DNA of 64,000 nucleotides from Microcaecilia unicolor (GCF_901765095.1 NW_021963017.1:174253-238252); one strand, 5' to 3'; shown: positions 11,973-62,304, counted from the stretch's first letter. Notes: generated by a model from the letters alone, not told the origin. Numbers and translations: made by a program.

Positions 11973-13079
<1,107 letters not shown>

Positions 13080-38225: not shown

Positions 38226-38269
38226 ATTGTTATTTAACAATTAAAATGTTTTGATTTTGTTTTGACAGG

Positions 38270-38401
38270 ATGGCTGTGGGAATCTTTGCAAACTGTGTGT
38301 TCTTTCTGAAAGTGACCCGTTTATCTGTTCTGGACAAGAAAAAGATTAAAAGTCACATACAAGAAAATGGGGGAGTCATTTCTTTTGTGCTAAATAAAAA
38401 G
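38270..38401 (+). CDS. PARP4: PARP4 (vault poly(ADP-ribose) polymerase) first coding exon, holding the start codon
   Basis: The acceptor ttttgacag|G precedes the ATG. The peptide MAVGIFANCVFFLKVTRLSVLDKKKIKSHIQENGGVISFVLNKK aligns with the human PARP4 N-terminus MVMGIFANCIFCLKVKYLPQQQKKKLQTDIKENGGKFSFSLNPQ, quoted from memory. The donor is AAG|gtattg. Confidence 0.8.
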
Positions 38402-38919
38402 GTATTGAAACTGTTTTTCTCTTTTTTTCTAGATAACTTTTATAAATAAAACAAATCCAGAGTAGTGTGCTACTTAAACCAGTTCAATTTATGCAAGTGT
38501 ACAATAAAAAGAAGAGGTTTAGTGTTTGTCAAAGGGAAATTGTATTGCATTAAATAACTGAAAGGTTAAAATTAGCTTGTGAGCAGGAGAGCGCATGAGC
38601 ATCTGGCTTCAGGTGATATGTAACAAATGAGTCAGGCAAATGGGGTCATTCATACCTGCAAACAGAACCACAGGTAAAAAGAGGCAAATAGCATTCTTCC
38701 AGAAAAGTCTTAAATATCACAATGTCTTTGCTATACATTTTAATGTGTGTGTGTTTTTTTTAAATATTTATTGAGGTACAAGACATTCACATTCATGCAA
38801 CAAAATGAAAAGACATAGTCCTAAACCACAATTCACAGCAAATGAACAGATTGAAATATAAACAACAACAAAAGACAGTACCCTCAGCTGAGTACTATTT
38901 TAACATCCTGCCCAATTTT

Positions 38920-39480
38920 AATTACCCAACAGACAGCCCCCTCCCCACTCCTGGAACATCTGCAGGTCCCTGAAATAGTGCAACATAAAGTTGCCAAAGG
39001 GAACGATAAGCCTGATTCATCAGCTTTTGGTTAGACTTAAGCTGTTCCTGCTCCCAACGAGCCATCTGAAGCATCTGTGCATTCCAGTGTTGCAAGGGTG
39101 GCGGGCTTTCAGCAACCCAGTGTACCAGTGTGGTCTTCCTGGCCAACATTAATGCTACACAGATAAAACGACCCTGAGAATCAAGTATACCCTGTCCACG
39201 TAAAGCAGATTCATCCCCAAAAGTAACACTCGGTAAGACCATTCAATGGTTAAATTAATCACTCGCCCCGAAGATGCAAGATCCAAAAGTCCCGTATTTT
39301 CATACATTCAAGGAAGTGATTGACAAGAGTGCCCACCGCACAATGGCATATCACACAGGTATCATCAGCCCAAAGACCCATCTGCTTCCCCCTAGAGCTA
39401 GTGATAAAAGCTCTGTACAATAGCTTGAACTGCACCTCATGCAGACTAGCACTGGGAATGGCCTTGAAGGCCAACACAAA
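38920..39480 (-). mobile_element. LINE (CR1/L2/RTE-like) ORF2 C-terminal fragment
   Basis: The minus-strand ORFs read ...LHEVQFKLLYRAFITSSRGKQMGLWADDTCVICHCAVGTLVNHFLECMKIRDFW, then ...ICVALMLARKTTLVHWVAESPPPLQHW. That is the usual C-terminal Cys/His domain of LINE ORF2. Confidence 0.5.
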
Positions 39481-39549
39481 GCAAGCAGCCAGTTCTGACT
39501 CAGATAAGTCCTCTCCCAGCTGCCCAGTCCACCATGAGGCCAAATGAGA

Positions 39550-40340
39550 GGGTCGATGTTCCCTGCCTACGGTGTACCACGCCGCCAATTTATTTGCTGT
39601 CACGTCCCTTACCTCTGGGCCGGCGAGGCCTCCGGCAGCATGAGGACACCCCGCTGTCTTGATGCCGTAGCGCTTTCCACCGGTGCGGCCAGGTCCTCTG
39701 GCGGTGCGGGGTCGTCCGCTCTCTTGACGTCCGACGCACCGTTGGCGGTGGTTCGGCGTTCCGTCTCGTAGCGCCGAAGGTACTCCGGGGCTGTTCGGGT
39801 CCATGGGCCCACCTCCCTGCTCCGCAGGGATTGGTCTTCCTGCGGGCAGACTCCTGCGCTCCTCCCCCCTCGGCATTCCAGCCTATAGCAGCGCTCCTTT
39901 CCAGCTGATCTCTCTCAGCTACAATGATCTGCTCAACTTCAGGGCGCTGCCTCCCTGCCTCATCGTTTCGGCTTTTACTAAGGTAGGCGATTCACTCTCT
40001 CTGTTCGTTGCTGTATTACTTGCTCCTGCCTCTGACCCTTGCTCGGACCCAGACTACTCTCTGCCTGCTGCCAGTCTCTGACCCTTGCTCGGACTTGGAT
40101 TACCTTCGGCCTGCTTCTGACTTCTGCCTGTGCCTGGGAACATCGCTCACTTACTTTTGGCCGATTCCTCTGCATCCTTTTTTCCCAACCTACTGAAGTC
40201 CTGCCGGCCGGCCGGCCGGCCGCACCTGGGGGCTCAACCCCCAGGGACCGGCGGTCACCGCAGGTGAAGTTTCGGGGTTGCTCGGCTGCCTAGCAGAGCC
40301 CAGGTTCGAGTCTCTCTCATCTGTGCTCCGCTTGGCACAG
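39550..40340. mobile_element. CpG-rich non-autonomous repeat (homologous copy at 54230-55200) with ~45-bp tandem units and a cacctggg.gctcaaccc..ggcggtcacc.caggtgaa hairpin module
   Basis: The two regions are co-linear with each other. The hairpin module is also shared with 16190-16260. It includes a (ccgg)n run at 40205-40222. Confidence 0.4.
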
Positions 40341-41825
40341 GGACTCACAAGGGCGACATTTGCTGACAGAAAAGTTTATCCAATGTGGCAAAAGAATGTC
40401 CCCGGACACCAGAAGGGACAAGGGATACACAGTAAAGCCGTAGCTGAAAGAAAGCTAAGAAGTCAGAATGAGAAAGCTGCCATTGTGCTTGTGCAAACGA
40501 AGGGAAGACAGCCCCCTCTGGATCTGTAAAATGTCCAACATAGTGACAGCTCCCCTTCGCCTATGCCCTAAAACAGGTTGCACCCTGCTCCTCCAGGAAG
40601 TGAGGGTTGTCAACCGTTGCTAGAAAAGGGGAGGAACCAGATGCTTCCCTGGAACGGAGTCTCCAACACATCCACACCCGACGAAGTGGGTGGAGCAGAG
40701 GGTGCAGCCCCCCACCCCATCATGGGCACCTGTAAAAGGTTAAAAGCCGAATAAGGATAAGAGCAGTCCGCTCATACATAACGTGGTGCATAGTTGTAAA
40801 CGCCAGTATAAAGCTCATGTATCCACCTGATCAGCGCTGTAACATTGTAAAGACGTAAATCTGGTAGATGAGGGCCTCCCCCCGTGACTGGGAGTGAATG
40901 AATTTAGTGTAGCTAATCTGTGCCCTACATCTGGCCCAGAGAAATGATCCTACAGTCCCTTTATATAATGCTTCCTCCTTTATAGCAATCAAGGAGGGGC
41001 AACATCTGCAAAGGGTACAGTATTTTGGGGGGCATGACCATTTTTTCCAGCACCACTCTGCCCAATAATTGCTTATATGTGCTTTTATAGAATAGGCTCA
41101 CAGACCGTGTTCTTTATGCGCCCATCTTGTAGCTAGGACTGGCACGCCCGTAGCCAACTTTTTGCACTGGCACCGATGCCCCCTTCACTCCACTACAGCC
41201 TGTAATCCAGTATCTCCCTTTGTCGCTCAAGCCCTGCCCCCCTCCCCCACTGGACCAGGTGAGGCACTGGCTCAAGATGCTGGTGATAAAGGGCACCAGA
41301 ATCCCAATTAGACATCTATCCCTCTAAGAGTTTGAAGGTAGGCTGGACTGGGATTTTGACGGCCTTGATCTTCAGTGCCCTGAGCCAGTGCCTCAACTGA
41401 TCCATAGGTTGAGCTGGCCCTGCTTGTAGCACCCAGTTGTAGAATTGTCCCCTTTAATGTATGACATCTGATACAGGTGGGAAGCCTAAACATAGCTAAT
41501 GTTGAGTCCTTCCAAAGCAAGACATTTTTTTTTCTGTGTGGAATAAAGTTGTTGGTTTTTGTTTTTTTTTTTAATCTGGCAACTTTGCTCCTTTTTGATC
41601 GTCTGCTATTTGACTATGAAGGCTTTTCCTCTTCTTTTTTTTTGTGATTAATACTACAATTGAATTCCTTCAAAAAGGCAGTAAATAAATCCTAATTAAT
41701 AAATAATAAATTGCAGTGTGCTGTGTCTCAGAAAATGTTCATGATCTCTGTCCCTAAGTACAGTTATCGCCAGCAGTTAAACATTTAGAGAAGTATAATG
41801 ATTGCAGTTATTTTATATTTTCCAG

Positions 41826-42021
41826 TGCTCTCACATCATTGTGGATAATATTGATGCATTAAGTTCTTATCAGCTGAAAACCATTCAGAAGTATCAAATC
41901 CCCGTTTTACTCAGTGACTTCATCCAGAATTGTGTTGAAGAAAGGCGGCTCCTACAAGCTGATGATTACGTTGCTAAAAAATCAGTTCAGATAGATCCAA
42001 AGAAAGGGACAGAAAGTCAAG
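41826..42021 (+). CDS. PARP4: PARP4 coding exon 2 (BRCT domain)
   Basis: The acceptor is tttatattttccag| and the donor CAAG|gtaaag. CSHIIVDNIDALSSYQLKTIQKYQIPVLLSDFIQNCVEERRLLQADDYVAKK aligns with human CTHIILDNADVLSQYQLNSIQKNHVHIANPDFIWKSIREKRLLDVKNYDPYK. Confidence 0.8.
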
Positions 42022-42560: not shown

Positions 42561-45500
42561 TGTGTCATTTTTTTTCTGCTTAAGGTTTTTCTGATTAAGG
42601 TTAGGACTACATATTAGCAGGTAAATCAGCTGAAAAATAACCAAATAAGCAATCTTGTTAATTTTTAGATGGATGTGTTAACTGTATGTCAACCCCATAT
42701 TTAAAAGACATATGAAAATGATTTGAATCATAAATCTACAAAGATCAGTATTTGTATTGATCAAATATGTGAACACTATAGTGTATGTATTTTATGTTTA
42801 GAGTATATTTCATAGAAAGGTAACCTACAAATGTGGATAAATACATTTATATAAGAAGATACTACATATGTATGACTATAATTTCTTATAATGTCATATA
42901 TATAGTGAATCCTTCTATAATAAATTGACTTTTGAGGACAGGTTATATTTATGCTTTGGAGGAGTGTGAGGGGAACCAGCCGAGACCTAAGCAGCCACAA
43001 AGGATTGGTCCCGTGGTAAAAGGCAGTGCACATCACAGTAAGTTCATGGCAGTTTAATATGTACTAGCCTCATAATACACAGGTTAAATATATACAGGTA
43101 CAATGAGTAAATTTCCTCACTTGTCCCTTTGCAGTAGCCTGTAGGTAGGCATAGTACATAAAGCATAATCCATAGGCAGGAGCACTGACAAGGAATCAAA
43201 GGATACATGATATTTGGCCAGCTGGAATGGAGATTTAAACTGGGAACACAAGAGTATGAGCGCAGGCATAGAAAACAGGGATCCTAGCCAGCTGGAAATC
43301 AGGAGATGGGCAAGGATCAAGAAGGTACCACAGATAATGATCTAGTGCTGATGTAGCCTAGGAGTAGGGCATATAAACCTCTACTGTCTGGTCTGTGCTA
43401 GAGATTTGGCACGGGGACAGAAATCTTACCCATCCTTGCTCTAATTTTACCCATCTCCACTGAATCTTAGCCATCTTCGCAAGAATTTAACCCGTTCCCA
43501 CCCTGCCCGCATGAATTTAACCTGTCCGCACTCAGTCCTGCAAGAATTTAATGGTACATAAAAAAAAAAAATTCTAGTCTGTCTATCTCTGGGTTCGAGC
43601 TACAGCACTGCAGGCAAGGAAGGAACAGAAGTTGGAACACTCTGATGCACACATATAAAACTTATCTCTGATTCACTAGCACTGGCTGTGAGGTCGCCAA
43701 ATACACATGCCAGTAGGTCAGGTGACATCTGATGCTTGTGCCTGTGTCAGAGCTGAGGTCCATGCATCAGCCTGGGAGTAGAGAGGATTAATAGTAACAT
43801 AGTAAGTGACATCAGAAAAAGACCTGAAAGGTCCATCCAGTGTGCCCAATTGTCACACTCATTATCAATTCATGATACAATGAACATGATATTATATACT
43901 TGGTTATTGTCTTTCTTTGGCTTTTATGGGATATAGACCATAGAAGTCCGCCCAGCCCTATTCTTATGTTCCAACTGCTGGGGTTGCTGTCGAAGCCCAC
44001 TCCAGGCTGTTTGTCTTCTCGTTTGCGGGACACAGACCGTAAAAGTCTGTCCAGCACTGTCCTCATGTTACATCCACTAAAATTGCTGTCTAAGCCCTTT
44101 CCAGCCCATCTTAAACCAGATTGCCATATATGAGACACAGATCATACAAGTCTGCCATGGTATCTGTCCTAGTTTATCACAGCCGGAGTTGCATCTAAGC
44201 GTCTCTCGACACGTCCACACACATGCAGCTATTTAAGTTTAGGTTTTTTATAACTTCCATTTTCTAATTAGAGATTGTCACAAAATACGCAGCCACTTAG
44301 AGAGTCTATCCCCAGCATAGCGCAGCTCAGGTCAACCTGTACCTGCCTCTTGTGCTCTACACTAGCACCCACTCCCACCGACTGAGTCGCAGCCGCCTCT
44401 GGGCAAGTCACAGTGGAACAATGAAGTAAAAAAAAGTGCAATCAGCAAACAATAACAGGTAATTGAAATATGGATCAATTACAACATTAACTAGACATTT
44501 GTATACTTCCTAGAAAGTACCTGGGAAGATCAGGACGCAAAATTCACCGAGCCTCAACAAAAAAATCTGTGTCTCTTTTCTTCTGGGCTGAAGCAGTACT
44601 ACGGGGTAATTTTTCAAACTCTAGCCAGTCAGAGCCCAGTCAGCAAGTTTTAAAAGTATATTGCTTCTTGCTTGTGTTAAAGAAAAAGAACATTCAGTTC
44701 CTTATAACAATTTTACAGCAAAGAAAGACCACCTGCTGGCCAAATAGGAGAAATACACTTCAGGAAAATATCTAGTACATTTTACAGGCTTAAAACATAC
44801 TGTTTGTTCAAAGAGATTCTCTGTGTTCATCCCATGCCTTTTTGAATTTCGTCACCATTTGTGACTGTATCACCTTCTTAATGGAGACTTTCCGCATCTG
44901 TGCTGTTAAAGCAAGGAGGAAGAGATGGCACTCAAAGAACTTGGCACTCGGTGGGTGAGAGGCTGGTGCAAGTGCATTGTACACTTCCATGGGAACGCCG
45001 CAGGAACGCCCCGTGGGAACCCTGCAAACCCCGATCCCGTGCAGGACTTTAGTCTGGGCCCTGCCAAGAACAGGCAAGACAGACAGAACCAGAAACAGGA
45101 GGACCATCCTACAAAGAAACACAAGGCATGGGGAATATGGCTCCTCCTATAGATGGGGGGGGGGGGGGGGGCTCATGCCCAGTGCAGCAGTGGCTCAGAC
45201 AAGGAGCTGCAGTTTGGAATAATACTTACAGCAGTATCACAGACCCTAATCTGATTTTCAGTTTTGCCTTTATTTTGTTACCGCTGTCATCTGTTTATCT
45301 CTTCCTTTTTAAAGTTCCATTACCATAATGTACACATTCAGATTTTGCTTCTGTTTTATATTTATGCTTTGGAGGGGATTATGGAGATAATTTCAGGAAC
45401 TAAGTGTTTGGTTTTGTGGCTCAGTGCAGAATTGTGTGGTGGTTTGGGTTTGGTTGCAAGATACGGTTTCTGCTTTCTTGACCATCTAGGGATTAAAGAT

Positions 45501-46200
45501 GTCTCCATAGCTTAACAGTGACATTTGCTAACCACATTTTGAGTATTTACGTTTCAAATTCATATAAGAGCTGTGGTCTCTGACTCTTAATCAAGGACTG
45601 TCACTGAAATGGCTAGCCTGGGTGGTGGGTTATAAAATGATGGGTGGGGGACGCCCCTGGGTCACTGTAAATGAAGGTTCATGGAACCATGGTCTAGTAG
45701 AGGCAGATTTGATTAAGCTGGCTCCCCAGAAAATGAGAGACTGTCGGAGAGAGAGAGGATCTAGGAATTTTAACCTGTGACCTATCTGTTCCAAAACAAG
45801 ATATTCTCTGCCTTTTGAGCTTCTATAATCCATTCCTGCTTAGATTTTCACAATACCCAGACTGAACATAGATGAAATAATCTTCTGATGTCACATTTAA
45901 ATCAGAATGTAATTGAATGAAATTTGCTTTAGTTAATCTGGATATCCAGGCCAGTATCTGCCCCCAAACAACCTGATTTGCTGACTGTAAAGGTAAGTTT
46001 GAGATAACCTTTCAATTATGTAAGAAAATGTAGTGACTCTTCTGTGTAGAGAAAAGTAAAGCCACTGCTGTGCCTTCTGACAAGGATATTCTATGTTATT
46101 AACAGGATGAAAGGAAGGTGAAGAGAATATGCAGGTTCAACTTATTTTGTAGGTCTCAGCATAGTTTATTAATCTTTAAATCTCTGTAAATTTCTTGTAG

Positions 46201-46267
46201 ACCAAGAAAAGAGCCAGGTTTTTGAGACTCCTAAAGACTGGAAAGAAAAAGACACTGACAGCAACAG
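46201..46267 (+). CDS. PARP4: PARP4 coding exon 3, in the divergent acidic linker
   Basis: The acceptor is ttcttgtag| and the donor AG|gtattg. The splice phase fits exon 2 (1) and exon 4 (2). The peptide is DQEKSQVFETPKDWKEKDTDSN(R). Confidence 0.55.
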
Positions 46268-46860: not shown

Positions 46861-47692
46861 CCATTAAGTCCCTCCAAGTTTCTGTCAGCCAATCACAGCT
46901 CATTTAGTTGGAAGTTGAGTGGGGACAAGAGTGTGAGGTTGAAAAGGGCTATAAATGTGAAATAGATGGAAGGATCAAAAATCTATTGATCTTTAAAGTT
47001 TGTCAGGATCCTTTCTACTTTCCTGGTTATCTTCAGAGTCTGTTGAGATGATATTTGTGTTCAAGAAATGCAAGTTTACTACTTTTCCTTTCTTTGTCAT
47101 GTAAAGTTATCATTGACCTGCATTGAGCTGAATGTAATTTGTTGCAATTTAGGAGGCTGCTGTAGACTTCTTTATTGAAACTTTCCATTAGGTCTTTTTA
47201 TTGGAAGAAGCTGGCTGCATATTTTTATCCTGTCAGTGTTTTGTAATGTTTTATTTATCTATTTTATCTGATTACTTATGTTTTGGTTGTTTGCTTCATA
47301 GCATGGTCTTGATCAGTTCTGCAGGGTATAAATGTGTTGTGAATAATTAAATATCTTGTTTAGTATAAGAAGAATGTATTTCTATATCTTTTTCCAGTAT
47401 TGCACTCTAATTTATACAAAGGTTGATTTAGTTCAGTTTTTATGTGCATACTTCTATTTTTAACTTGTTTATTTTTGGTGAGGGTTGGTGTGTGATTTGT
47501 GTATGTGACTATGTTTAAAAATACTTTAAAAGGCTAGGTATACTGGGAGGAAGTGACGTCATGAGGCTGAATGGCCACTTAATCCTTTAGCTCCTGCGCT
47601 TCCCTACCTTTTATACAGCACCATTCGTGGTAATGTCCCTCTCCTTCATTTTGCAAAGGGCTGCAGAGACTTGGTGGGTGTTTCTCTACAAG

Positions 47693-48596
47693 ATGAGTAA
47701 AAAATGTTTTGCGCCACTTCGGGAAAGCGAACGCCTTTCCACGAGGCAGATGGTGCGGGGCTTGTCTCGCCATGCTTCCCCTAAGCCGCGGAGATCGTCT
47801 GAGTCGGACTCGGCTTCTTCCCGTGAGGAGCAGAGCGACCCTGTTCCTAAGAAAACTCTTCCGCAGGACCTGACTAAGTGTCTTGAGGCGATCAGGGCTG
47901 AAATTCTGGCCTCAAAAGAAGAAATCCTGGAACATGTGGATGCGTTAAGCGTCGACCTGCGGGAGTTGGGGGGCAGGGTGGAAGCATTAGAAGAGCGGGC
48001 GGACGAGCAGACGGAGAAGAACGAGGCAGTGGATCTGCGTTTGGCCAAGTTGGATGAGCAGGCAGAGCAGCTTCAGTATAAGTTGGATGACCTCGAGAAC
48101 TGGGGTCGCAGACAAAATCTTCGGTTTTGAGGTGTCCCAGAGAATGGGTGAGAGTTTCGCGGCTGGAGCCAGAGACAACAGACCAGGAGATACTGTTGTG
48201 AGATTCACTACTTATGCTTGTAAAGATCAGTTATGGCAAAAGGCTCGTCAGAATCCTGCTCTGCAGTATAATGGGGCACGTGTTTCGATATATCAAGATC
48301 TTTCCCTGTTTACCTTGAATCAGAGGCGAGCTATGAAACCAGTTCTTGAGATCCTGGCCAAAGAAAAAATAGCCTATCGATGGGCTTTCCCTTTTGCTGT
48401 GTGTTTTGAACTTAAAGGGGAGCAGTTTCGCTGCCGAAATGTGGGGGCTGCATGGAAGTGTCTGCATGAGGCTGGTTTGACCCTAACTGAGGCCCTGCCG
48501 GTGGGGTGGCCTCCTCTACGAAAGCCCGGCTTCAGAAGTGGAAAAGAGTGGCAAAGACAGCAAAGAAGCATGGGATTCAGACATGAGAAACTGTAG
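47693..48596 (+). CDS. L1 ORF1p-like protein: coiled coil, RRM and C-terminal domain, interrupted at ~48128
   Basis: The heptad-rich segment reads LTKCLEAIRAEILASKEEILEHVDALSVDLRELGGRVEALEERADEQTEKNEAVDLRLAKLDEQAEQLQYKLDDLENWGRRQNLRF. The next frame then reads ...RFTTYACKDQLWQKARQNPALQYNGARVSIYQDLSLFTLNQRRAMKPVLEILAKEKIAYRWAFPF. Confidence 0.7.
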
Positions 48597-49041
48597 CCTG
48601 GACTGGTTTGGTTGCTGTTGGGATTGATTTCTGTTGACATAATGTGATTTCTGTAGGGAGATTGTTCTTGTGTGAGCTGACGTGTGTTTAGATTGGTGGA
48701 AGGTGAAGGGTGAATTATTGTTTGTGATATTTGCAGGTGGGGTAAGAGTGAGGGGTTGAGGGGTATTTTATTTGTTTTGGGGTTTTTTTTTCTTGTTTGG
48801 CCCGTGAGGTCTTTTTCCTTCTGCTTCCCATGTGGTGCTGTGTGGCACTGTTTGGTGGGTGGATGAGAGGGGGAAGGAATGTGGGAGTGTGTGAGGGGGA
48901 GAGGGAAGGGTTGGGGGGGAGGATTGGGGTGCTTTGGGTTGGGGGATAGGAGGAGGTTGGGGGGGGGGGAAGTTTGGGTTCTTGGGGATTAGGGGACTGT
49001 AGGCTCCTTTCACCAATCGTGTTCTGGACAGAGAATGTCGG

Positions 49042-51700
49042 ATGGCAGACTTTAAGGTTTTCATTTATAATCTAAAGGGTCTGAATTCTCCATACAAAAG
49101 GCATTCTTTACTGCGTGAGTTATGTTTGATGCCTCCACATGTGGTTTTCCTGCAGGAAACTGATTTTTTAAAGAAACATGAGGGTTTATTATCTTCTTCG
49201 CAGTACCCGACTGTGTATTATGCTTCTGATGCAAAGGGAGCTAAGAAAAGAGGGGTGGCTATTATGTTTCATAAGGATGTGCAGGTACAACTTGTGCATT
49301 TAAAGAGAGACACTGAGGGTCGCTATCTTTTTCTGCACGTTATGTTGGGGCAGGAGGAGTACACTTTGGCTAGTGTTTACGCCCCAAATGAGCGGCAAGA
49401 GAGTTTTTTTGTGCGCCTCCAGAAGGAGTTGCAGAATTTTGCTTGGGATAAAGTGCTGGTGGCAGGAGATTTTAATGCTACTATGCAGCCCGGGACGGAC
49501 AGATCTGCTCCTCCTGCTTCGACTGACTATAGAATTTCTAAGGCTTTGAGGAATTTTGTAGATGCTATGGGTCTTTATGATGTGTGGAGACTGGGACACC
49601 CTAGAGGGTGGGACTATACCTTTTATTTTCCTGTGCATCTCTCTTATTCCAGATTAGACTGTTTGGTTTTTTTTTTTTTCATAAAACCTTGTCAGAGGAG
49701 GGGGGGTGACTCTTACATAGGTCATATTACTATCTCAGACCATGCTTCGGTCAGGGCAGTTATTCCTTCTTTGAAGATGGACATTCAATAACTGTTTGTT
49801 ACAGGACCCGGATATTGTTGCTAATTTTCTTCCTGTCTTAAAAGACTATTTTGCTATTAATATGGAGTCGGGACCGACATTGGGTACAGTGTGGGATGCC
49901 TTTAAGACAGTATCGAGAGGTTATTTTATTAAGTGTGGTAGTCCGCGGTTCAGGGTTCATAAAGTGCTTTGGAGGACAGGTACAGGGCCTCAGGCTCTGT
50001 GTCTGACTTTCGGAAGCTTCAAGCGGTACGATTGAAGCTGGCTGCGTTGCATGATGAGAGTTTGCAATTTGTGCATGCACGTTTAAAACAAGTTCATTAC
50101 GAATGTACTAATAAACCTGGGTGGTTGTTGGCTACAAAATTAAGAAAGATGAGAGCAGGTAGGCATATTTTGAGAGTGCGGGATGAAAATGGAGCTATGG
50201 TACATACTTCGGCTCGGATTCGGGAACGTTTTGCCCAATTTTATGAGACTCTGTATGCTGCTGTACAGACTGAGGAAATTGACAATTATTTGGCTGCTCG
50301 GGGTTTGTCGGTTTTATCTGAATTACAGAGAAGGGAACTGGAAGCTCCGGTGACGGTGGACAAGGTGATGCAGGTTATTAAGACATTGCTGACGGGTAAG
50401 GTGCCGGGTTTGGATGGATTTACGAATGAATTTTTTTAAAGACCTTTGTGGGGGAGTTGGCACCCTATTTGATGTTGGTCATTAACTCTGTTAGGGATGG
50501 TGTGTCTTTTCCCAAGTCTATGATGGAGGCCTGGTTGGAGGTAATTCCAAAACCAGACAAAGATAAAACTGAATGTGCATCATATCGCCCTATTTCTATA
50601 CTCAATACTGTTGTTAAAATATTGGCTAAGGTGCTTGCGAATCGTTTGGGCAATGTGCTTCCTAATTTAATCCATCTAGATCAGGTCGGTTTTGGAGCAA
50701 AGTAGCAGGCAATGGATAATATTCGTAAAACTTTGGACTTACTTTATGCATCTCAGTTGAAAGCCTGGCCTGTGGGGTTATTAGGACAGGATGCTGAAAA
50801 GGCCTTTGACAGGGTACATTGGGGATATTTGGATAAGGTTTTACATCGATTTGGGTTGGGACCGTTTTATAGGTCCTGGATTCAGGCGTTCTATTCTTCG
50901 CCGCAGGCTTGTGTGAGAGTAAATGGGGAGAATTTGGGGGCTTTCTTTTTGGGGCGTGGTACCAGACAGGGGTGTCCGTTGTCTCCTCTTCTATTTGCTC
51001 TGGCGATGGAGCCTTTAGCGGCAGCTATTCAAGAAAATGTAGACATCACCGGGGTAAGGGTGGGAGAACAGGAACATAAAATCACATTATTTGTGGGCGA
51101 TGTTCTCCTGTCCTTGACTAAACCGTTAGTTTCTCTTCCTAACTTAATGAAGGAGATGGCGGCGTACTCACAGATATTTGGATACAAGTTGAATGCGAGT
51201 AAGTCCACTGGGATGGCTGTGGGGGTATCACCTAGGCTGATGGAGGCGTTGAAGACTTCCTTTGCTTTTAAATGGTCTGTCAGAGATCTTCGCTGTTTGG
51301 GGGTTCAGATTCCTGGGAACCTGTCAGAGTTGTTTGCTGTTAATTATCCGGCTGTTCAGAAGGCGATGCAAAGAGATTTGGATAGATGGATGTCCATGGG
51401 TCTCACCTGGTTTGGGTGGATTGCTGCGATTAAAATGAATATTTTACCTCGCTTATTGTATTTATTTCAGGTACTTCCCTTTCGTTTGTCTAGGTCATTC
51501 AAGACAGTTTGATTCGTTTTATTTGGTATCATAATAGACCGCGTGCTTTTTTATATAAGAGTAAGCATGCTGGGGGATTAGGGGTACCTAACTTGTTCTG
51601 GTATTATTGTGCTGCGCAGTCTAGATCGGCTCTTGAGTGGTTTCAGAGGGAGGATCATAAATTGTGGGTACATATTGAGCAATCTTTGGTTTCTCCATGC
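49042..51700 (+). pseudogene. L1 ORF2 (APE endonuclease, reverse transcriptase, post-RT domain), split into six ORFs by frameshifts
   Basis: The endonuclease reads MADFKVFIYNLKGLNSPYKRHSLLRELC...VVFLQETDF...LVAGDFNAT. The RT reads ...YRPISILNTVVKILAKVLANRL...QVGFGAK / FDRVHWGYL...RQGCPLSPLLFALAMEPLA...FVGDVLL. The post-RT domain reads IRFIWYHNRPRAFLYKSKHAGGLGVPNLFWYYCAAQ. Confidence 0.75.
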
Positions 51701-52290
51701 AGGAGAAAGAGACGTCAGAATCTCAACCTTTGTCTGTATTGTGGTGATACTGGACATTATGCGGCCAGGTGCCCTCTTAAACCGGCACCCCTGGATCAGG
51801 GTTTGACAGCAGGCACTATAGTAAGTCTATCTTCTGACATTCTTCGTACTCAATTCTAGGTGCCAGCTGTGCTCGATCTTGGTCACAGAAAGGAACAGAC
51901 TGAAGTTTTCCTGGACTCTGGGGCTGGTGGAAACTTTATAACCGAGGCCCTGGTTCATCAGTTAAACATTCCTATACAAGAACTACCTAAGACCATGCGG
52001 CTTTTTTCAGTTTATGGACGCATTCAAGGTTATGTAAACACCCAGACGGGTCCGGTGAGCTTATGTATTGGGGATCACAGAGAAGACATTTCCTTTTACG
52101 TCCTCCAGTCAGCCGTGCAACCCATTGTGTTGGGTCTACCGTGGATACAGAGCCACAATCCGATCTTAGACTGGGAAAAGGGTGAGATTTTGGACTGGGG
52201 TGAGTCCTGCAGGAAGGATTGCCTCGTGTCGGATCATGGTGAGATTGACAGCGAACGGCAAGACCAAGAATCAGATGCCTGGACTGACAT
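51700..52290 (+). mobile_element. Gypsy/Ty3-like LTR-retrotransposon fragment: Gag zinc knuckle and aspartic protease
   Basis: CLYCGDTGHYAARCP is a CCHC knuckle. FLDSGAGGNFITEALVHQLNIP...QPIVLGLPWIQSHNPILDW is a retropepsin-type DSG protease. Its frame runs straight on from the L1 post-RT sequence. Confidence 0.6.
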
Positions 52291-52490
52291 GAAGTGGAAG
52301 AGTGGCCTAGTGGTTAGGGTGGTGGACTTTGGTCCTGGGGAACTGAGGAACTGAGTTCGATTCCCGGCATAGGCAGCTCCTTGTGACTCTGGGCAAGTCA
52401 CTTAACCCTCCATTGCCTGCCGCATAGAGCCTGCCATGAGTGGGAAAGCGCGGGGTACAAATGTAATAAAAATAAAATAAATAAACATTA
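52290..52490 (+). mobile_element. tRNA-derived SINE
   Basis: agtggcctagtggttagggtggtggactttggtcctgg...gagttcgattcccggcataggcagctccttgtgactctgggcaagtcacttaaccc...gggtacaaatgtaataaaaataaaataaataaa. A fragment of the same family lies on the minus strand at 55740-55860. Confidence 0.5.
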
Positions 52491-52524
52491 GTGACTCACA
52501 GTCCCAGGACTTGGATGTTGCTGC

Positions 52525-54960: not shown

Positions 54961-57596
54961 CCTGGACCTGTTCCTTCTGCTCTCCATCAGCTGGCTCCTC
55001 ATGGCACCCCGCTTCTTGCCTCTCAGTATAAGTCCTGTCTGCCGCCCACACCTGGGTGCTCAACCCTCAGGGAACGGCGGTCACCACAGGTGAAATTCGG
55101 GGTTGTCTGGGAATCCGGGTCCGAATTCCTCGCATCCGGCAGCCCACTGCTCAGCACAGGAACTCACAAAGCTGACAGGTGTTTCATTGATCTTGTGCTG
55201 GCATTGTATCATATCTGTTATGTGAATTGTATTCCTTGCTGTCTGAAAAACGAAAGAGAGGAAAAGACTGTGCAGAGTAAACACAGGAAACCAAAGAACG
55301 GAGGTGGTCAAATGAAACAGAGACGTGAATCACAGTTGCAAATAGGAAGTCAGCCATTAATAAAGACTTCCTATTTGCACCTGTGATTTAACGCCTCCAT
55401 TTTTTTTGGCCACCTCTGCTCTTTGGTTTCCTGCTGTCTGCCATAGCTTTGTTTGTATTGCACTGACTTTACCAGAACACAGTGCTTTTACCACACTTAG
55501 AACATGTGAATGGTTTCACTTTATTTTGGATTTTCTTGTGTATTTTGTACATTTTGCATTTGGCTGTATTTGTTTGAAAATGGATCAAGAAATAAAACAT
55601 CCAAATCACAAAACATTTTTCCAAACAGCATTTTCAAAAGGAAAAGAAACTTTTTTTTGTAGAAAATGACCTTTCCTGTTCTGATTTTGGACGTTTTAGA
55701 AAAGACGTCCAAATTCAGACTTAGATGTCGTATCCAAAAATGCTGCTGGCGCATTTGACTTGCCCAGAGTCACAAGGAGCAGCAGTGGGAATTGAACCCA
55801 TGCTACCAGGATCAAAGCCCGCTGCACTAACTGTTAAGCCACTCCTCCTCTGTTTTAGATGTCTTGCATTTGGATGTCTTTTGTTCGAAAATGGACCAAA
55901 AAAAAGGACGTCCAAAACATCCAAATCACAGGACGTCCATAGTATTTTTGAACACAAAAGAAAGAAGTCCATCTTTTTCTAAAATAACCTTCTTTCCTGT
56001 TCGGAATTTGGACGTCTTTGTAAAACGACTACATTCTGATCTAGACATTTCTTTCGAAAATGCCCCTCCACTTGACCTGCCCAGTGTTGCAAGGAATGTC
56101 AATGAGAGGAGGATTTGAACCGTGCATTGTCTGGTTCTCATATCACTAGACTTCTTTTCCACTCAAAATAACACACTGCTTCTTTAGTTGTACTCTGTAC
56201 GTAGTATAACCAGAGGGAAATGTGTGAACCAGAAACTTGAAATCCAGTCATACATTTTTTTTTAAAGTTACATTTTGGATAGGGTCAAAGCCAAGTGAAA
56301 CTATGTTGAATTAATTTGTATTGTGACCAAGGGTACAGTTAAGTTTTGGAAGCCAAGCAATTCCAGATATCCGTATTTGAAAGTTACAGTTTTGATTATC
56401 CGACCTTCACTGATCCGACCATTCAGCATATCCGACAGACCCCCGGTGACATCATGCATCTTTTCTTTCTGTTTTCCAATAGTGCAGGACCCTATTTTTA
56501 TAGCAAAACAGCACCGTTGTGAGCCGAGACCCTTCTTTTACTGCCTTTGTTTCTGCATTGTTTGAGTGGTTACCGTTGTTTTCTGTATTATCCATCTATT
56601 CATTTATCCAACAACTGGTTTGGTCCCGTTTAGGTCGGATAATCGAGATTTGACTGTATTTATGTTTTTGCAAGTTAAAGTAAGATCCCTATATTTTAAA
56701 GAAAAACAATTGAGTATGCTTGAAAGCTAAATGTCTGTCTTCTGATGTTTGAAGGTTTTGGCATAATTTCTTGGATGCAGAATAGCTTTTTAAATGAGAA
56801 TGAATTGAAAGCCTGTCAGGGATGTTCAACAACAAAACTGCATGTCTGGTTATTAACTTGCCCTAGCTCTGGGACCATCTACAGCATGAGGCAAAAGAAA
56901 AGTAACCCTCTAGAGCTTTTTTGCCATTTTCTCAGCAACTGCTTTGAATTTCAGTGAGAAATTTTACATACTTTTGTAGTCATCATACTTGCATATTACT
57001 ATTAAACAACATTTAATTATCTTAAGCTGTGTTGATGTTGCTGACATTTTAGCATTACTACCTAGTGATTTTTGTGCATTAAAAATGTTCAAACTAAAAC
57101 ACGGTAAAATAACATCATCCAAACGATACAGTTAACAGTGTGTCAGAATTTCACAGTCACCATGAATGCTCAAAGTGTTCACCCCCCAGCTTTAACATAG
57201 TTCCTTGGGGAAGTTCTAACAGCCTTGTTGATTGGTCCTTGTGGCAGGCTATCCGAGATCATCTGCAACAGTTTCCTTGAGTTCACCAATTGTTTGCAGA
57301 GGGTGGAGCTTGTGATAGGCCTCCAACATTGCTCCCCAGACAAAAGTCTACATCACTCTGATGTCATTAACAGTAAGCTGGTACCCCGGTTTGTTTTTCA
57401 AAGTCTGTAACTTTGTGTTTAAAGATAATCTCATTCCACTCGATACATAAACGTAGAGAGTTACAACAAATAAAGTTGTAAAATTTCAAGTTGAAATTCC
57501 AAGCGGTTGCTGAGAAAATACCAGAAAACTTCAGGGGATTACACCCTGTAGATATTCTGGGGTTAACAGTCTACCAATTTATCTTGTTTATTTCAG

Positions 57597-57672
57597 AATT
57601 TATACCAAAGATAATCTGGATCCTACCAATCTTCAAGATGTCGAAATTGCAAAGTATGCTGTTCTTGAAAAA
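57597..57672 (+). CDS. PARP4: PARP4 coding exon 4
   Basis: The acceptor is ttgtttatttcag| and the donor GAAAAA|gtaagag. (R)IYTKDNLDPTNLQDVEIAKYAVLEK aligns with human ...PQDFEVAKYNTLEK. Confidence 0.7.
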
Positions 57673-59029
57673 GTAAGAGTTGGATCAGCTGAATTATTTT
57701 GCAGTTGCAGTTCTCTATCTTGTAAATCAATTAAAGTATTTTACTGACCTTTGCCTGATTTAAGTTTGTTAGTGCTACTGCTAGGGTCAAAGCCATCAGC
57801 ACATGCAAATCCCGTGAGAGGTAAAGGACAAGCAGAGTGAGAGGAGGAGTAGTGATATACTAGAGCTTTGTGCAGTGATGACCTTGAACAGTAAGGCCCT
57901 CTATTAACTTATTAGGCAGCAGGACCAGTAAAGCGGCTGAGGTGGCAAGAGCTGTTCACTGTTGAAGGTCCCCAGTTCAGTTGCTTAACTGAGCCTTCCA
58001 TTACCCAGATTGGCTGAGAGGGTGTTGAGGCGGCAGTGTTCAGTTTCCATGGCCATTGCTTATGAGCAGCACCAAGTTACCAGATTTAGGGCCTATGGTT
58101 TCAGAGTCTTAGTCTTTTTTTTTGTTTGTTTAGCTCATAGAATAATGCCCCTGTTTATGAAATGTCATTAGGTTTCAATAGAGGCACTAGCCATTTTAAG
58201 TTGTGTACAGAGATTTTTTACCATCTTAGGTGGGCAAGTTCCTCAGTATTGTAGTTGTGCCAGAAACAAGTAGAAGTTGTTCATTTTGACATCAGCAGAC
58301 ACTTTACTTTCCCAGTCCAAAAATGGTAAGGTATAAAATGGTATTGAAGTCAACTTTTGCTTATCAAACCACTAATACATGGAATACTTCAACGGAAGAT
58401 ATTAGAGCTATGACTAATTATAAGTTCTTTTAGAAATCTTGAAAAACGTTTTTATTCTGCAAATATGTGTCTTTGAAATCTTAAAATGGGTTATTGGTTA
58501 TTTAATAATGTTGTAATACATAGGTTTATCTAGTTATCATCTCTGGAAACCTGCATTGAATTGTTAGATATGTCATTTACAAGTACTGTAATGTAAGAGT
58601 TCAAGAACGAGCCCTGGTGCATGGCCCTTGGCTGAGCATTTGCATTGTAGTGACCTGATCAGCTATACAGGGTGGGGTGGGATTGGGGCTGAGTGGGGGG
58701 GAAGGGGGGTTAAGAAGGTGAAAAGGAAGGTTAATTGCTAGGGAGTAGGTAATAAAGGCTTATGGCACCAGATTCTAGCCCTCATTTCAGTTGAGCTGGA
58801 AGTATTAAGGAATAAAAAGAAAAATGTTAATATCATAAGTGAGTTTTTTGTTCAAATGCTTTTCTTCTACCATTTTTTATCTTGCTTGCTATAGTGGAAT
58901 GCTTCTGCTGGGTGCACCAAGAGATAGAGATGTTAGCATGCCTGCCAGTCAGGCAATTTGATTAATGAAATGGCCACTGCTGACTGGTGCTGTCTTATTT
59001 AGTACCATTACATGTAGGCTTATAGGACC

Positions 59030-60740
59030 TTAAAAATATGATGGGAGGGAATAGGGTTACCATATGGCCAGTTTTACCCGGTCATGTCCTCTTTGTGAGG
59101 ACATGGCCAGGCATCTGGGCAGGTTTTGCCAGCCTGCCCATTTGTCTGGACTTGCTGACGAACGGGTAGGGTGGTGGGCTTCAGGGTGTCCTCCCCTCCC
59201 CTCCTTTACTTTATTGTAGTGTTCTGGTGGTCTAGTGACCTCTACGGGGCAGTAAAAAGCCCATCTTTCCTGCCTGGCGTGGCTGTAGACGGCCTTACTT
59301 CTGGCGCTGCTTCAAAATGCCTGCTGAGAGTTCAAGTGATGGCCTCATGAGACTTTCACAGAAGTCTTGCAAGGTCACTGCTTGAACTGTCGGCAGCCAT
59401 TTTGAATTGGCGCCAGGCGCAAGACAGTGTAGCCATGCCAGGCCCCATCTTTCCTGGCCCAAAGAGGCCACCAGGGCACTACAATAAGGTACAGGAGGGG
59501 TAGTGAACGAATGGAGTCGTGGGTGGGGGGAGACAGGAAAATTGGGGAGAGGATGTACATGGGGGGGGAGAGAGAGGGAATCTGGCTTTCTTTCAGGCAG
59601 ATGATCAAAAGCAAACGCCGGCATGCCGGCGTTTGCTACCGCCCCATAATCAGAGCCCTCGAGCGAGTGAAACAACGCGCTCGAGGGCTCTTTGCGCAAG
59701 TAGCATGCAAATGCATGTTAAACAGGGCTTAGCGCATTCATCGCCGATGATCAGCGGTCAGCGTGCCAAAATTTGGGTTGCTGGCCGTGGCAAACCCTAC
59801 GGCAGTTCCGAGCTGGCGTTAGGGTTTACAGATCATTGGGGAGGAATGGTGAGCCCTGTGTCCAGCATGCAGTTGCATGCTAGCAGGCCCCCGTTGCCCC
59901 CAAAGCAAACCTGCCAACAGGGGGCAGGAGGTCTGGCGGACCTCTGTTCCCCCTCCCCCCCCCGACGATCCCACCCCCCCAGGTTCAGGGAGGGCTGGCA
60001 GTCCGGTGGATCTCCAGCCCCCCCAAACCCCCAGAAAATGGTCCCTGGTGGCCGCTGGCTAACCCCCCCCCCCCCAGCAAGCGACAGGGGTGGGCTGGAG
60101 GTCCGGCGGACCTCCAGCCCACCCCAGCTCGCCCTCCCCCAGCGTTTTCAAGAATCCCTGGTGGTCCAGCATAAAAAAGAACCCCCTCCCAGCGAGCGAC
60201 CGGGGGGGGGGGCTGGAGATCCGGCGGACCTCCAGCCCACCCCAACTCCCCCCCCCCCACAACGTCTGAAGAATCCCTGGTGGTCCAGTGTAAAAAAGAA
60301 CCCCCTCCTGCCCCCCCCTACCTTAGTTGGAGGAGGGAGGTAGGTAGCCTGCCTCCTTCCTCTTCCATGGGATGACGCTGCCGCCGCAAAATGGTTGATG
60401 ACGTTGCTCGGGACAGGGGTAGTCATGGCCTGGTGGTCCCATGGACCTCCAGCCCCTGTGTTTGACAGGTTTGGGCTTTTGACAGCCCAGATCTGTCAAA
60501 CAAGTGCGGGAGGATTGTGCTGAGCGCATGCTCGGCACAATTTGCCCGCACTTCTACCCCATGATCAGAGATAATTGCGCTGTTTAAATTTGCATGCATT
60601 ATCTATGATCATAGGTCTAATAGGGCTCCACACTGTTCCAGCGCTATTTTAGAGCGCTGTTGGAACAGCGCAGGGCTTTTGATCATCTGCCTGTTTGGGA
60701 GGGTGGAGGTGTGACAGGGGCCAGGGCATGTTTCCTCTTT
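59030..60740. repeat. GC- and CpG-rich segment dense in palindromes, with ~120-bp tandem units at 60060-60305
   Basis: There is an imperfect ~300-bp palindrome at 59200-59500. Perfect hairpins include gcaaacgccggcatgccggcgtttgc and gagccctcgagcgagtgaaacaacgcgctcgagggctc at 59620-59700. Further hairpins sit at 60480-60560 and 60600-60680. The tandem units read gctggaggtccggcggacctccagcccacccc. Confidence 0.55.
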
Positions 60741-60909
60741 TTCCTTAGGGCAAATACGATAACCCTAGTAGGGAATCCTTTATTTCTGAAAGAAAGAGTG
60801 GCTCACTGAGTGGAGCAGAGCTGGTGAGCATCCATTAAAACTTGGTAGCATATCACTGAGGGTGTGAGGTCTATGTAGAAATGTATTAAACTGGAAAACG
60901 TTTTTTCAG

Positions 60910-61020
60910 ATTCTAACAGATTTAAAAGAAATGGCAGTTGTTGAGCTGCAGCAACTATCGGAAAATTATGCATTTCCATTTCGCATTTCAGCAAACTTTG
61001 GTTTATCAAATGGATCTCAG
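60910..61020 (+). CDS. PARP4: PARP4 coding exon 5
   Basis: The acceptor is ttttttcag| and the donor CAG|gtaattt. ILTDLKEMAVVELQQLSENYAFPFRISANFGLSNGSQ aligns with human VGMEGGQEAVVVELQCSRDSRDCPFLISSHFLLDDGMETRRQ. Confidence 0.75.
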
Positions 61021-61534
61021 GTAATTTTTATTGCCTTAAAAATCTTTTCACCAGTCTCTTAAAAATATTCTGTACAGATCTAAGTGATAAATAATTGGTA
61101 TGATATGGACCGGCTACACTAAGCACGACACGAGTAAAAAACTTTAGTTAGTACATCGGGCTCTAAATGAGCATCTGACATTCTTTTTCTCTTTCCATTT
61201 CCCAAGGCAAAAGAGAACAGGAGAATATACTTCAGTTGTATTAACTGCACAACAGTGCATAGTAAATACTCTTCATATTTTGTGGTGGTCCATTTTTTCA
61301 TGAATTTAAGGCACATGCCCCCAATTTGGGCTCGGGTCCACCCAAAATTAGACATCTCCCTTGCTGTGGCTGGTGGATATCCTCAAGCTCCGCCAACTGA
61401 AGATCTCCTCTTCCTGTTTAGTGACCAGAACTCTTCAAGCTCTGCAGCCAGTGTCAGTGTTCCTGGGGAGGTCTTCAGCTGTCAAGGCTTGGGGATCCCC
61501 ACCAGCTCAGGTATTTTATATTTTGTATTTGGAC

Positions 61535-61562
61535 GGGGGGGGGGGGGGGGGGGGGGGGGAGG
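61535..61562. repeat. poly(G) homopolymer of ~28 G, flanked by ~45-bp direct repeats at 61310-61355 and 61590-61630
   Basis: gggggggggggggggggggggggggg. The flanking repeats read cccaatttgggctcgggtccacccaaaattagacatctcc and cccacgtttggctcaggctcacccaaaatcagctatctgg. Confidence 0.9.
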
Positions 61563-62154
61563 GCAGAGGGGTGGGGAGATAATTGTGTGCCCACGTTTGG
61601 CTCAGGCTCACCCAAAATCAGCTATCTGGCGACGCCACTGATGTGTTCGATGCATTTTTAGAAGGTTTCCCAATATAGTTAAAGTAATTGGTAACACTGT
61701 GACAGTGTATTTCACTGAGGCAGCAAGTCAGCACAAAAGCATGAAAATATTTTCTGAATATAAATTTGTAGCACTGTCACCATCTATAGTAGATTGGTTT
61801 TAATGACACAGTAGAGAAAACATAACTCTTAGTAACAGACTTCAAAATATTTTAAATGGAAAACACATAATATTCTCTCTTTCTCTGTGAGTTTATGCTG
61901 ATTTGTCTAATCATGAGCTGACCTTGAGGCTTATTTTCAAAGCACTTAGCCTCCCAAAGTTCCATAGAAACCTATGGAACTTAGCCTCCCAAAGTGCTTT
62001 GAAAATATGCCTCCTTATATAGTAATGGAATCTGTAGAAAGCAAGTTCAGTGATATAAGTGTTTCTTTTATCACCAAACTGTGAAAGAGAAGAGAGTGTG
62101 AGGCATCATTAGTCCAGCCTGTTCATTAAAACATGGTGGTTTTGTGATTAACAG

Positions 62155-62304
62155 AAAGAAACACAGTTTCTACAGGTGAAAACTTCGAAAGAGGCTTGCG
62201 AAAGTTATGATGTCTATCTTGAAGATCTCAAGAAGAAAGATTTCACATTAAAAGAAGATGTCCCCCAAGAAGCAATCCGGTTTGCTTCTGAGATGCTGCA
62301 GGAG
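62155..62304 (+). CDS. PARP4: PARP4 coding exon 6
   Basis: The acceptor is tgattaacag| and the donor GAG|gtttct. KETQFLQVKTSKEACESYDVYLEDLKKKDFTLKEDVPQEAIRFASEMLQE aligns with human FAIKKTSEDASEYFENYIEELKKQGFLLREHFTPEATQLASEQLQA. Confidence 0.8.

What the first reader, a model, noticed from the sequence alone, without database searches (positions are those of the whole stretch)
38270..62304. 5' end of a PARP4 (vault PARP) orthologue whose introns are packed with transposons
Six phase-consistent exons with canonical GT-AG boundaries encode the PARP4 N-terminus, including the BRCT domain. The introns are long, at least 3.4, 4.2, 11.3, 3.2 and 1.1 kb. They are made almost entirely of L1, Gypsy, SINE, MITE and unclassified repeats. 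Exon 3 (DQEKSQVFETPKDWKEKDTDSN) is very diverged from the human linker and may be lineage-specific. A MITE at 37962-38225 ends about 45 bp upstream of the acceptor of the ATG-containing exon, where it could affect splicing of the 5'-UTR exon.
Basis: partly seen in the sequence, partly recalled or inferred. Interest (0 to 1): 0.5.

Follow-up and report, generated by a model that had tools for sequence, protein, structure and literature searches.

The report
Start of a caecilian PARP4 gene

Summary
Six co-linear, phase-consistent GT-AG exons on the + strand (38270-62304) encode 244 aa. These match human PARP4 residues 1-246 (E=3.8e-46). Per exon they are 92-100% identical to the RefSeq PARP4 of the caecilian Microcaecilia unicolor. 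Overall identity is 82% to Geotrypetes and 68% to Rhinatrema.

Three secondary claims need correcting.
1. Exon 3 (46201-46267) is not lineage-specific. It is present in all three caecilian families and sits at the position of the BRCT-WGR linker found in every vertebrate PARP4 aligned.
2. "Intron 2" holds another intact 96-nt in-frame exon (42942-43037, AG/GTAAGT). It is identical to a 32-aa segment of the M. unicolor model and absent from the ten other PARP4s aligned. This exon is the real lineage-restricted candidate.
3. Transposon content is demonstrable only for intron 3, which has a decayed L1-like element and a gag-protease fragment. About 26% of intronic bases have any repeat evidence. 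No SINE signature was found.

The 270-bp inverted-repeat element just upstream of exon 1 is real, but any effect on splicing is speculation. Caecilian genomes are about 70% repeats, so this is an ordinary, already-known gene in an expected setting.

The parts
37959..38228 (.). MITE-like 270-bp non-coding element with terminal inverted repeats of about 50 nt. Its right arm carries a consensus donor-like CAG|GTGAGC, with GT at 38217-38218. It ends about 40 nt before the exon-1 acceptor.
   Evidence: Inverted repeats. The core occurs only as these two arms in the window, with 0 expected by chance. The donor-like motif is located. No target-site duplication was recognised and no other copy is in the window.
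38269..38401 (+). Coding exon 1. Acceptor ttttgacag|G, ATG at 38270, 44 codons, ends in phase 0. It encodes the first half of the BRCT domain.
   Evidence: tblastn hits (95% aa identity to M. unicolor). The acceptor scores highest of 1822 AGs in my rough PWM. Pfam BRCT covers aa 4-81.
41826..42021 (+). Coding exon 2, 196 nt, phase 0 to 1. It encodes the second half of the BRCT domain and the start of the linker. Donor is AAG|gtaaag.
   Evidence: (97% identity to M. unicolor).
42942..43037 (+). Candidate cassette exon 'E2b', 96 nt, phase 1 to 1. It encodes GYIYALEECEGNQPRPKQPQRIGPVVKGSAHH. Acceptor is gaggacag|GTT (weak polypyrimidine tract) and donor is ACA|gtaagt (consensus).
   Evidence: The M. 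unicolor RefSeq PARP4 (P0116) carries this 32-aa segment between E2 and E3, and the window matches it 32/32. It is absent from Geotrypetes, Rhinatrema and 8 other vertebrate PARP4s.
46201..46267 (+). Coding exon 3, 67 nt, phase 1 to 2. It encodes (D)QEKSQVFETPKDWKEKDTDSN(R), part of the disordered BRCT-WGR linker.
47591..51509 (+). Decayed L1-like non-LTR retrotransposon in intron 3, in sense orientation. It has a coiled-coil ORF1-like ORF, an APE endonuclease (49042-49788) and a reverse transcriptase (50430-50702 and 50712-51509), broken by frameshifts.
   Evidence: Pfam Exo_endo_phos 1.5e-10 and RVT_1 2.4e-20. An RVT_1 N-terminal piece is.
51494..52351 (+). LTR-retrotransposon (Ty3/Gypsy-like) gag-protease fragment abutting the L1 remnant.
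   Evidence: Pfam zf-CCHC 9.5e-4, gag-asp_proteas 4.5e-6 and RVP_2 8e-4. No RT, integrase or LTRs were found.
57597..57672 (+). Coding exon 4, 76 nt, phase 2 to 0. Donor is AAA|gtaaga. A weak in-frame alternative donor 6 nt downstream (57678, AGA|gttgga) is the one used in the M. unicolor model ('LEKVR').
60910..61020 (+). Coding exon 5, 111 nt, phase 0 to 0. Donor is CAG|gtaatt.
62155..62304 (+). Coding exon 6, 150 nt, phase 0 to 0. Donor is GAG|gtttct (weak). Homology to orthologues stops exactly here, and the next exon lies beyond the window.
   Evidence: 100% aa identity to M. unicolor over 51 aa, ending at ...EMLQE. There is no hit for the next exon in 62305-64000.

Best explanation
Window 38269-62304 (+ strand) is the 5' coding part of the single-copy PARP4 (vault poly/mono-ADP-ribosyltransferase) gene. 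The source is a caecilian amphibian very close to, but not identical with, Microcaecilia unicolor.

Exons 1-2 encode the BRCT domain, which binds nucleic acid and vault RNA. Exon 3, and the optional 96-nt exon at 42942-43037, encode the disordered acidic/lysine-rich linker. Exons 4-6 encode the block that lies where the WGR-like domain precedes the helical and catalytic domains. The rest of the gene lies beyond the window.

The ATG exon begins at a strong 3' splice site, so a non-coding 5'-UTR exon should lie upstream (inferred). The long introns carry decayed retrotransposons and other repeats as passive cargo, as expected in a genome that is about 70% repeats. Nothing indicates that these repeats or the upstream MITE-like element have a function.
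For: - phmmer against PDB hits human PARP4 (11jf_P, 9bw6) over residues 1-246 with E=3.8e-46, and the BRCT crystal constructs with E about 1e-25.
- Pfam finds BRCT at aa 4-81.
- An exhaustive HMMER search gives Rhinatrema PARP4 at E=6.5e-94. Every hit for which a source name was looked up is PARP4.
- The search seeded with the Rhinatrema protein returns PARP4 orthologues from Geotrypetes and M. unicolor. blastp identities to the window protein are 82% and 86%; the 86% includes the insert gap.
- tblastn gives six co-linear HSPs whose ends coincide with AG/GT sites. Per-exon identity to M. unicolor is 92-100%.
- The CDS has no stop codons in either the 6-exon or the 7-exon form.
- The domain order BRCT-WGR-HD-ART is described in PMC10711553.
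- Caecilian genomes are 68-72% repeats, with LINEs more abundant than DIRS (PMC10195157).
Against: - Only the first ~244 of roughly 1800-2000 codons are in the window, so the integrity of the whole gene is not shown.
- There are no transcript data. The 5'-UTR exon, the promoter, use of E2b and use of the alternative E4 donor are all inferred.
- No CpG island lies directly upstream of exon 1.
- Pfam WGR did not hit exons 4-6. Assigning them to the WGR-like domain rests on their position and on the literature.
- The species is not identified. There are 5 aa differences from M. unicolor in the shared exons.
Confidence: 0.93

Rival explanations
1. In this lineage the gene has seven coding exons in this interval, not six. 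The 96-nt exon at 42942-43037 is a real, expressed, Microcaecilia-clade-specific insertion into the BRCT-WGR linker, newly recruited from intronic (possibly repeat-derived) sequence.
For: - It is included in the only RefSeq PARP4 model of M. unicolor.
- The window keeps it 32/32 identical, with an open frame, an AG acceptor and a consensus GTAAGT donor at the 97th percentile.
- Its length is a multiple of 3 and it preserves phase 1.
- It is absent from the ten other PARP4s aligned.
Against: - The acceptor has a poor polypyrimidine tract, at the 68th percentile of all AGs.
- At 1-2% divergence, identity to M. unicolor does not separate exon from intron.
- The same RefSeq model also uses a very weak alternative donor at E4, so it may be a minor or artefactual isoform.
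- No other protein with this peptide was retrievable (sparse index).
- No repeat evidence covers it.
Confidence: 0.4
2. The segment is a non-functional partial duplicate or pseudogene of the PARP4 5' end, not the functional gene.
For: Only the 5' end is visible, and the region is saturated with mobile elements.
Against: - All exons are open.
- All splice sites are canonical.
- Per-exon identity to the M. unicolor functional model is 92-100%.
- Introns are retained.
Nothing in the window suggests duplication.
Confidence: 0.03
3. The MITE-like element upstream of exon 1 alters splicing of the 5'-UTR intron. It could do so through its CAG|GTGAGC donor-like site or by forming a hairpin near the branch point.
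For: - The element ends about 40 nt from the acceptor.
- Its right arm has a consensus 5' splice site at 38217.
- Its arms can pair over about 50 nt.
Against: - Using that donor would make a 52-nt intron. From general knowledge, this is below the usual vertebrate minimum.
- The polypyrimidine tract and the best-scoring acceptor are intact and lie outside the element.
- No transcript data are available.
Confidence: 0.05

Closest known systems
Microcaecilia unicolor PARP4
   Same: The exon order and boundaries are the same, and aa identity per exon is 92-100%. Its extra 32-aa linker segment is also present, intact, in the window.
   Different: There are five amino-acid substitutions in the shared exons (N16T, E43K, K60Q, P->S and L->P in exon 5). 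The window is therefore from a close relative or a divergent haplotype, not the same sequence. The RefSeq model also uses a donor 6 nt downstream at exon 4, adding 'VR'.
Geotrypetes seraphini and Rhinatrema bivittatum PARP4 (A0A6P8R189; XP_029458356.1)
   Same: Both have the same six-exon N-terminal layout, including the exon-3 linker peptide. Overall identity is 82% and 68%.
   Different: They lack the 32-aa insert. Rhinatrema has a 2-aa insertion in the BRCT domain.
Human PARP4 / vault PARP (PDB 11jf, 9bw6, 9bw7; BRCT crystal structures 9dfo and others)
   Same: The window protein is co-linear with human residues 1-246, with E=3.8e-46. The BRCT domain is clearly conserved.
   Different: Identity is about 45%. 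The linker corresponding to exon 3 is unalignable in sequence but equivalent in position and length. The positive selection known in PARP4 concerns exon 30, not this region (PMC4038475).

Membership tests
PARP4 (vault PARP) orthologue | N-terminal BRCT domain | tested here: met
   Pfam BRCT PF00533 E=2.4e-11 and BRCT_2 E=6.7e-10, at aa 4-92. PDB PARP4 BRCT constructs hit with E about 1e-25.
PARP4 (vault PARP) orthologue | Co-linear similarity to PARP4, rather than to other BRCT or PARP proteins, across the BRCT, linker and WGR-like region | tested here: met
   Human PARP4 residues 1-246 hit with E=3.8e-46, and the only PDB hits are PARP4. The best database hit is Rhinatrema PARP4 at E=6.5e-94, and the named top hits are all PARP4.
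PARP4 (vault PARP) orthologue | Helical and ART catalytic domains, VIT and vWA domains, and the MVP-interaction region | not testable with these tools
   These are encoded downstream of residue ~245. The next exon is not within 62305-64000.
PARP4 (vault PARP) orthologue | Single-copy orthology and conserved synteny | not tested
   No host gene was recognised in the upstream 38 kb (only transposon ORFs). Caecilian genomic loci could not be fetched.
L1-type non-LTR retrotransposon (intron 3) | APE endonuclease followed by reverse transcriptase on one strand | tested here: met
   Exo_endo_phos at 49042-49788 and RVT_1 at 50430-51509, both on the + strand.
L1-type non-LTR retrotransposon (intron 3) | ORF1, a 3' poly-A tail and target-site duplication | tested here: inconclusive
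   The upstream ORF 47627-48127 gives only weak coiled-coil-type hits. The 3' end is replaced by an LTR-element fragment. Target-site duplications were not searched for.
Ty3/Gypsy LTR retrotransposon (intron 3) | gag zinc knuckle and aspartic protease | tested here: met
   zf-CCHC, gag-asp_proteas and RVP_2 at 51509-52351.
Ty3/Gypsy LTR retrotransposon (intron 3) | RT-RNaseH-integrase order and flanking LTRs | tested here: not met
   There are no further Pfam hits in ORFs of 75 aa or more downstream. No direct-repeat pair flanks the fragment. It is only a fragment, so the superfamily assignment is tentative.
MITE (element at 37959-38228) | Short non-coding element with terminal inverted repeats | tested here: met
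   270 bp, with arms of about 50 nt at 92% identity and a 26-nt perfect core.
MITE (element at 37959-38228) | Target-site duplication and a multi-copy family | tested here: not met
   No flanking duplication was recognisable by eye in the sequence. No other copy is in the 64-kb window. Genome-wide copy number is not testable here.
SINE (claimed in the introns) | tRNA-, 7SL- or 5S-derived head | tested here: not met
   ARAGORN finds no tRNA-like sequence and Rfam gives no hit at gathering threshold anywhere in the window. Decayed SINEs could escape both tools.

The most novel reading that the evidence does not exclude
The 96-nt exon at 42942-43037 may be a genuinely new, Microcaecilia-lineage-specific coding exon. 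It would add 32 residues to the disordered linker between the vault-RNA-binding BRCT domain and the WGR-like domain of PARP4. That would be an example of recent exon birth from intronic sequence in an immunity-linked, fast-evolving gene.
Probability: 0.35. Interest if true: 0.25.

Novelty: already known. Interest (0 to 1): 0.1.

Why it matters
It matters little. PARP4 is a well-studied vertebrate gene, and its caecilian orthologues are already annotated with the same exon structure. Repeat-rich introns are the norm in genomes that are about 70% repeats.

The result is useful mainly as a validated gene-structure annotation for an apparently unannotated close relative of M. unicolor. It also gives a small lead: a possibly young in-frame exon in the BRCT-WGR linker.

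Tried and rejected
1. I first misread the exon-3 acceptor as 'tag|GAC' and thought E2 (phase 1) and E3 were out of phase. Re-indexing showed that the AG is at 46199-46200 and the D codon is split G|AC, so the phases agree.
2. The first word-indexed protein search found only a tuatara fragment. The exhaustive HMMER search was needed to reach caecilian PARP4.
3. Fetching genomic loci for the M. unicolor and Rhinatrema proteins failed, with no exact product on record. So I could not compare orthologous introns, the MITE or the 5'-UTR.
4. The 32-aa E2b peptide was too short to search. Its 42-aa ORF found no candidates. The index did not return even the M. unicolor protein, so this negative carries no information.
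5. A Pfam scan of all remaining intronic ORFs of 75 aa or more (84 ORFs) added only one RT fragment.
6. Rfam and tRNA scans were empty.
7. A CpG-island scan gave no promoter candidate next to exon 1.
It was superseded by database sequences.
9. The splice-site PWMs are rough frequencies from memory and were used only for ranking.
Full report
**What is there.** The window is vertebrate genomic DNA with 45% GC and a CpG observed/expected ratio of 0.45. On the + strand between 38270 and 62304 lie six short open segments. Joined at canonical AG...GT sites, they give a 732-nt reading frame of 244 codons with no stop.

| Exon | Coordinates | Length | Phase |
|---|---|---|---|
| E1 | 38269-38401 (ATG at 38270) | 133 nt | ends 0 |
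| E2 | 41826-42021 | 196 nt | 0 to 1 |
| E3 | 46201-46267 | 67 nt | 1 to 2 |
| E4 | 57597-57672 | 76 nt | 2 to 0 |
| E5 | 60910-61020 | 111 nt | 0 to 0 |
| E6 | 62155-62304 | 150 nt | 0 to 0 |

At first I thought E2 and E3 were out of phase.

**Identity.**
- The 244-aa product hits full-length human PARP4 in the PDB (11jf, 9bw6, 9bw7) over residues 1-246 with E=3.8e-46. It hits the PARP4 BRCT crystal constructs at about 1e-25. Nothing else in the PDB matches.
- Pfam finds a BRCT domain at aa 4-81/92, which is E1 plus E2.
- An exhaustive HMMER search of 1.8 billion representatives puts Rhinatrema bivittatum PARP4 first, at E=6.5e-94 and 69% identity. The other hits I looked up by name (turtle, frog, coelacanth, shark) are all PARP4.
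- A search seeded with the Rhinatrema protein retrieved the other two annotated caecilian orthologues. The window protein is 82% identical to Geotrypetes seraphini PARP4.
- Exon by exon, it is 92-100% identical to Microcaecilia unicolor PARP4.
- Five substitutions in the shared exons show that the source is a very close relative of M. unicolor, or a divergent haplotype, and not that reference itself. The M. unicolor 90%-identity cluster has a single member, and no other caecilian PARP4 appeared among the 120 best hits listed.
- tblastn HSPs from all three caecilian proteins end at the proposed splice sites, and homology stops exactly at ...EMLQE (62304).
- The next exon (QLLEEARN...) is not in the remaining 1.7 kb.

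**Function of the encoded part.** This comes from the literature and was not tested here. PARP4 has the domain order BRCT-WGR-HD-ART. The BRCT domain is the main vault-RNA and nucleic-acid binding module (PMC10711553; PMC12212138, listed). E1-E2 encode the BRCT domain and E3 encodes the disordered linker. E4-E6 encode the conserved block (QD.E.AKY..LEK...VVELQ...PF.IS...) that lies where the WGR-like domain is. That last assignment is inferred from position, because Pfam WGR did not hit.

**Exon 3 is not lineage-specific.** Its peptide is 96% identical in Microcaecilia, 67% in Geotrypetes and 55% in Rhinatrema. That is no worse than E1 (61%) or E2 (59%) against Rhinatrema. In a 12-species alignment it occupies the same slot as a linker segment of similar length in frog, salamanders, lemur, coelacanth and shark. 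Turtle and ostrich have a longer linker at that position. It is a fast-evolving linker exon common to vertebrates, not a caecilian novelty. The documented positive selection in PARP4 concerns exon 30, far downstream (PMC4038475).

**A missed exon.** The M. unicolor RefSeq protein carries 32 extra residues (GYIYALEECEGNQPRPKQPQRIGPVVKGSAHH) between E2 and E3. The segment is 96 nt and keeps phase 1 on both sides. It is bounded by ...gaggacag| and |gtaagt.

Including it, together with the alternative E4 donor, gives an open 278-codon CDS that reproduces the layout of the M. unicolor model. None of the other ten PARP4s aligned has this insert. Its donor is consensus, but its acceptor has a poor pyrimidine tract, at the 68th percentile of all AGs by my rough matrix. 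The same RefSeq model also uses a very weak donor 6 nt past the strong E4 donor, adding 'VR'. That model may therefore reflect a minor isoform.

I rate this at about 0.35-0.4 as a real, lineage-restricted cassette exon. It is the only mildly novel element here. I could not show a transposon origin for it.

**Transposons.** Intron 3 contains a decayed L1-like element in sense orientation. It has an APE domain at 49042-49788 and a reverse transcriptase at 50430-51509, split over several frames. Directly after it comes an LTR-retrotransposon gag-protease fragment, with a CCHC knuckle and an aspartic protease at 51509-52351.

Scanning every other intronic ORF of 75 aa or more against Pfam added nothing. 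I combined three kinds of evidence: ORF hits, intra-window repeat matches (five small families shared between the introns and the upstream region) and palindromes. Together they cover 49% of intron 3 but only 1-8% of introns 1, 2, 4 and 5, or 26% overall.

No tRNA-like or Rfam signal supports a SINE. 'Made almost entirely of repeats' is therefore unverified, though not refuted, because I had no repeat library. It is also exactly what is expected: caecilian genomes are 68-72% repeats, with LINEs the most abundant type, followed by DIRS (PMC10195157).

**The MITE-like element.** A 270-bp non-coding element at about 37959-38228 has arms of about 50 nt at 92% identity, with a 26-nt perfect core. 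It ends about 40 nt before the E1 acceptor. I saw no target-site duplication, and there is no second copy in the window. It meets the structural criteria for a MITE, but neither the target-site duplication nor the multi-copy criterion was met.

Its right arm contains CAG|GTGAGC, with GT at 38217. Using that as a donor would leave a 52-nt intron, which is implausibly short. The E1 acceptor is the best-scoring of 1822 AGs in the region, and its pyrimidine tract lies outside the element. A splicing effect is speculation.

**Surroundings.** The 38 kb upstream holds no recognisable host gene. It holds the following:
- A DIRS-like retroelement at about 5944-11756, with 99%-identical 115-nt inverted termini.
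- A Tc1/mariner element with an intact transposase and perfect 202-nt inverted repeats.
- Non-LTR RT fragments on the minus strand.
- Several long palindromes.

No CpG island adjoins E1, so the promoter and 5'-UTR exon remain unlocated.

**Verdict.** The main interpretation is correct, and three secondary claims are corrected. This is an already-known gene in an expected genomic setting, and its interest is low.

Noticed in passing
window 11754-13354 (- strand transposase 11973-13022): A complete Tc1/mariner (Sleeping-Beauty-like) transposon. It has 202-nt terminal inverted repeats that are 100% identical and begin CAGTGGGGGAAATAAG. TA is present on both flanks. The open transposase ORF is about 340 aa (HTH_SB, HTH_Tnp_Tc3_2, DDE_3). 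It looks young and possibly autonomous, and it is inserted at the end of the DIRS-like element.
   Followed up: partly
window ~5944-11756 (+ strand): A GC-rich, CpG-rich retroelement of about 5.8 kb with long ORFs of up to 630 aa. Pfam gives hits to LAP2alpha-like, RT_RNaseH and Dam-methylase-like domains. Its 115-nt inverted termini are 99% identical (5958-6072 versus 11642-11756). The pattern fits a recent DIRS-type element, the second most abundant transposon class reported in caecilians.
   Followed up: partly
window 24898-25398; also 23422-23723, 20414-20621, 16275-16470, 31916-32040, 55281-55437, 61926-62013: A series of segments that are their own reverse complement, with no spacer. They are 88-501 bp long and 77-95% self-complementary. 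The largest is 501 bp at 94.6%, in a 60-64% GC stretch. They could be foldback or MITE-like elements. They remain unclassified.
   Followed up: no
window 21799-22326 and 23765-24244 (- strand): Two reverse-transcriptase fragments (RVT_1, E=3e-21 and 2e-9) of a minus-strand non-LTR element. They appear to be separated by one of the palindromic insertions.
   Followed up: no
window 39251-40250 (intron 1): A stretch of about 1 kb that is CpG-rich and GC-rich (GC 0.55-0.62, CpG observed/expected 0.7-0.83). It has overlapping ORFs of 100-207 aa on both strands and no Pfam hit. It could be an unclassified repeat or an internal CpG island.
   Followed up: partly
window 38213-38224: The right arm of the MITE-like element carries a consensus 5' splice-site motif (CAG|GTGAGC), 52 nt upstream of the exon-1 acceptor.
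   Followed up: partly
window 57673-57678: The M. unicolor RefSeq model reads 'LEKVR|ILTD', so it uses AGA|gttgga, 6 nt beyond the strong AAA|gtaaga donor. Geotrypetes and Rhinatrema models use the strong site. This is either a tandem-donor isoform or an annotation quirk.
   Followed up: partly
window 59951-60308 and 61535-61563 (introns 4 and 5): There are C-rich tracts and a 119-bp tandem repeat containing palindromic GGGCTGGAGGTCCGGCGGACCTCCAGCCC units, plus a 29-nt poly-G run. These may form G-quadruplex or hairpin structures. They are unclassified.
   Followed up: no
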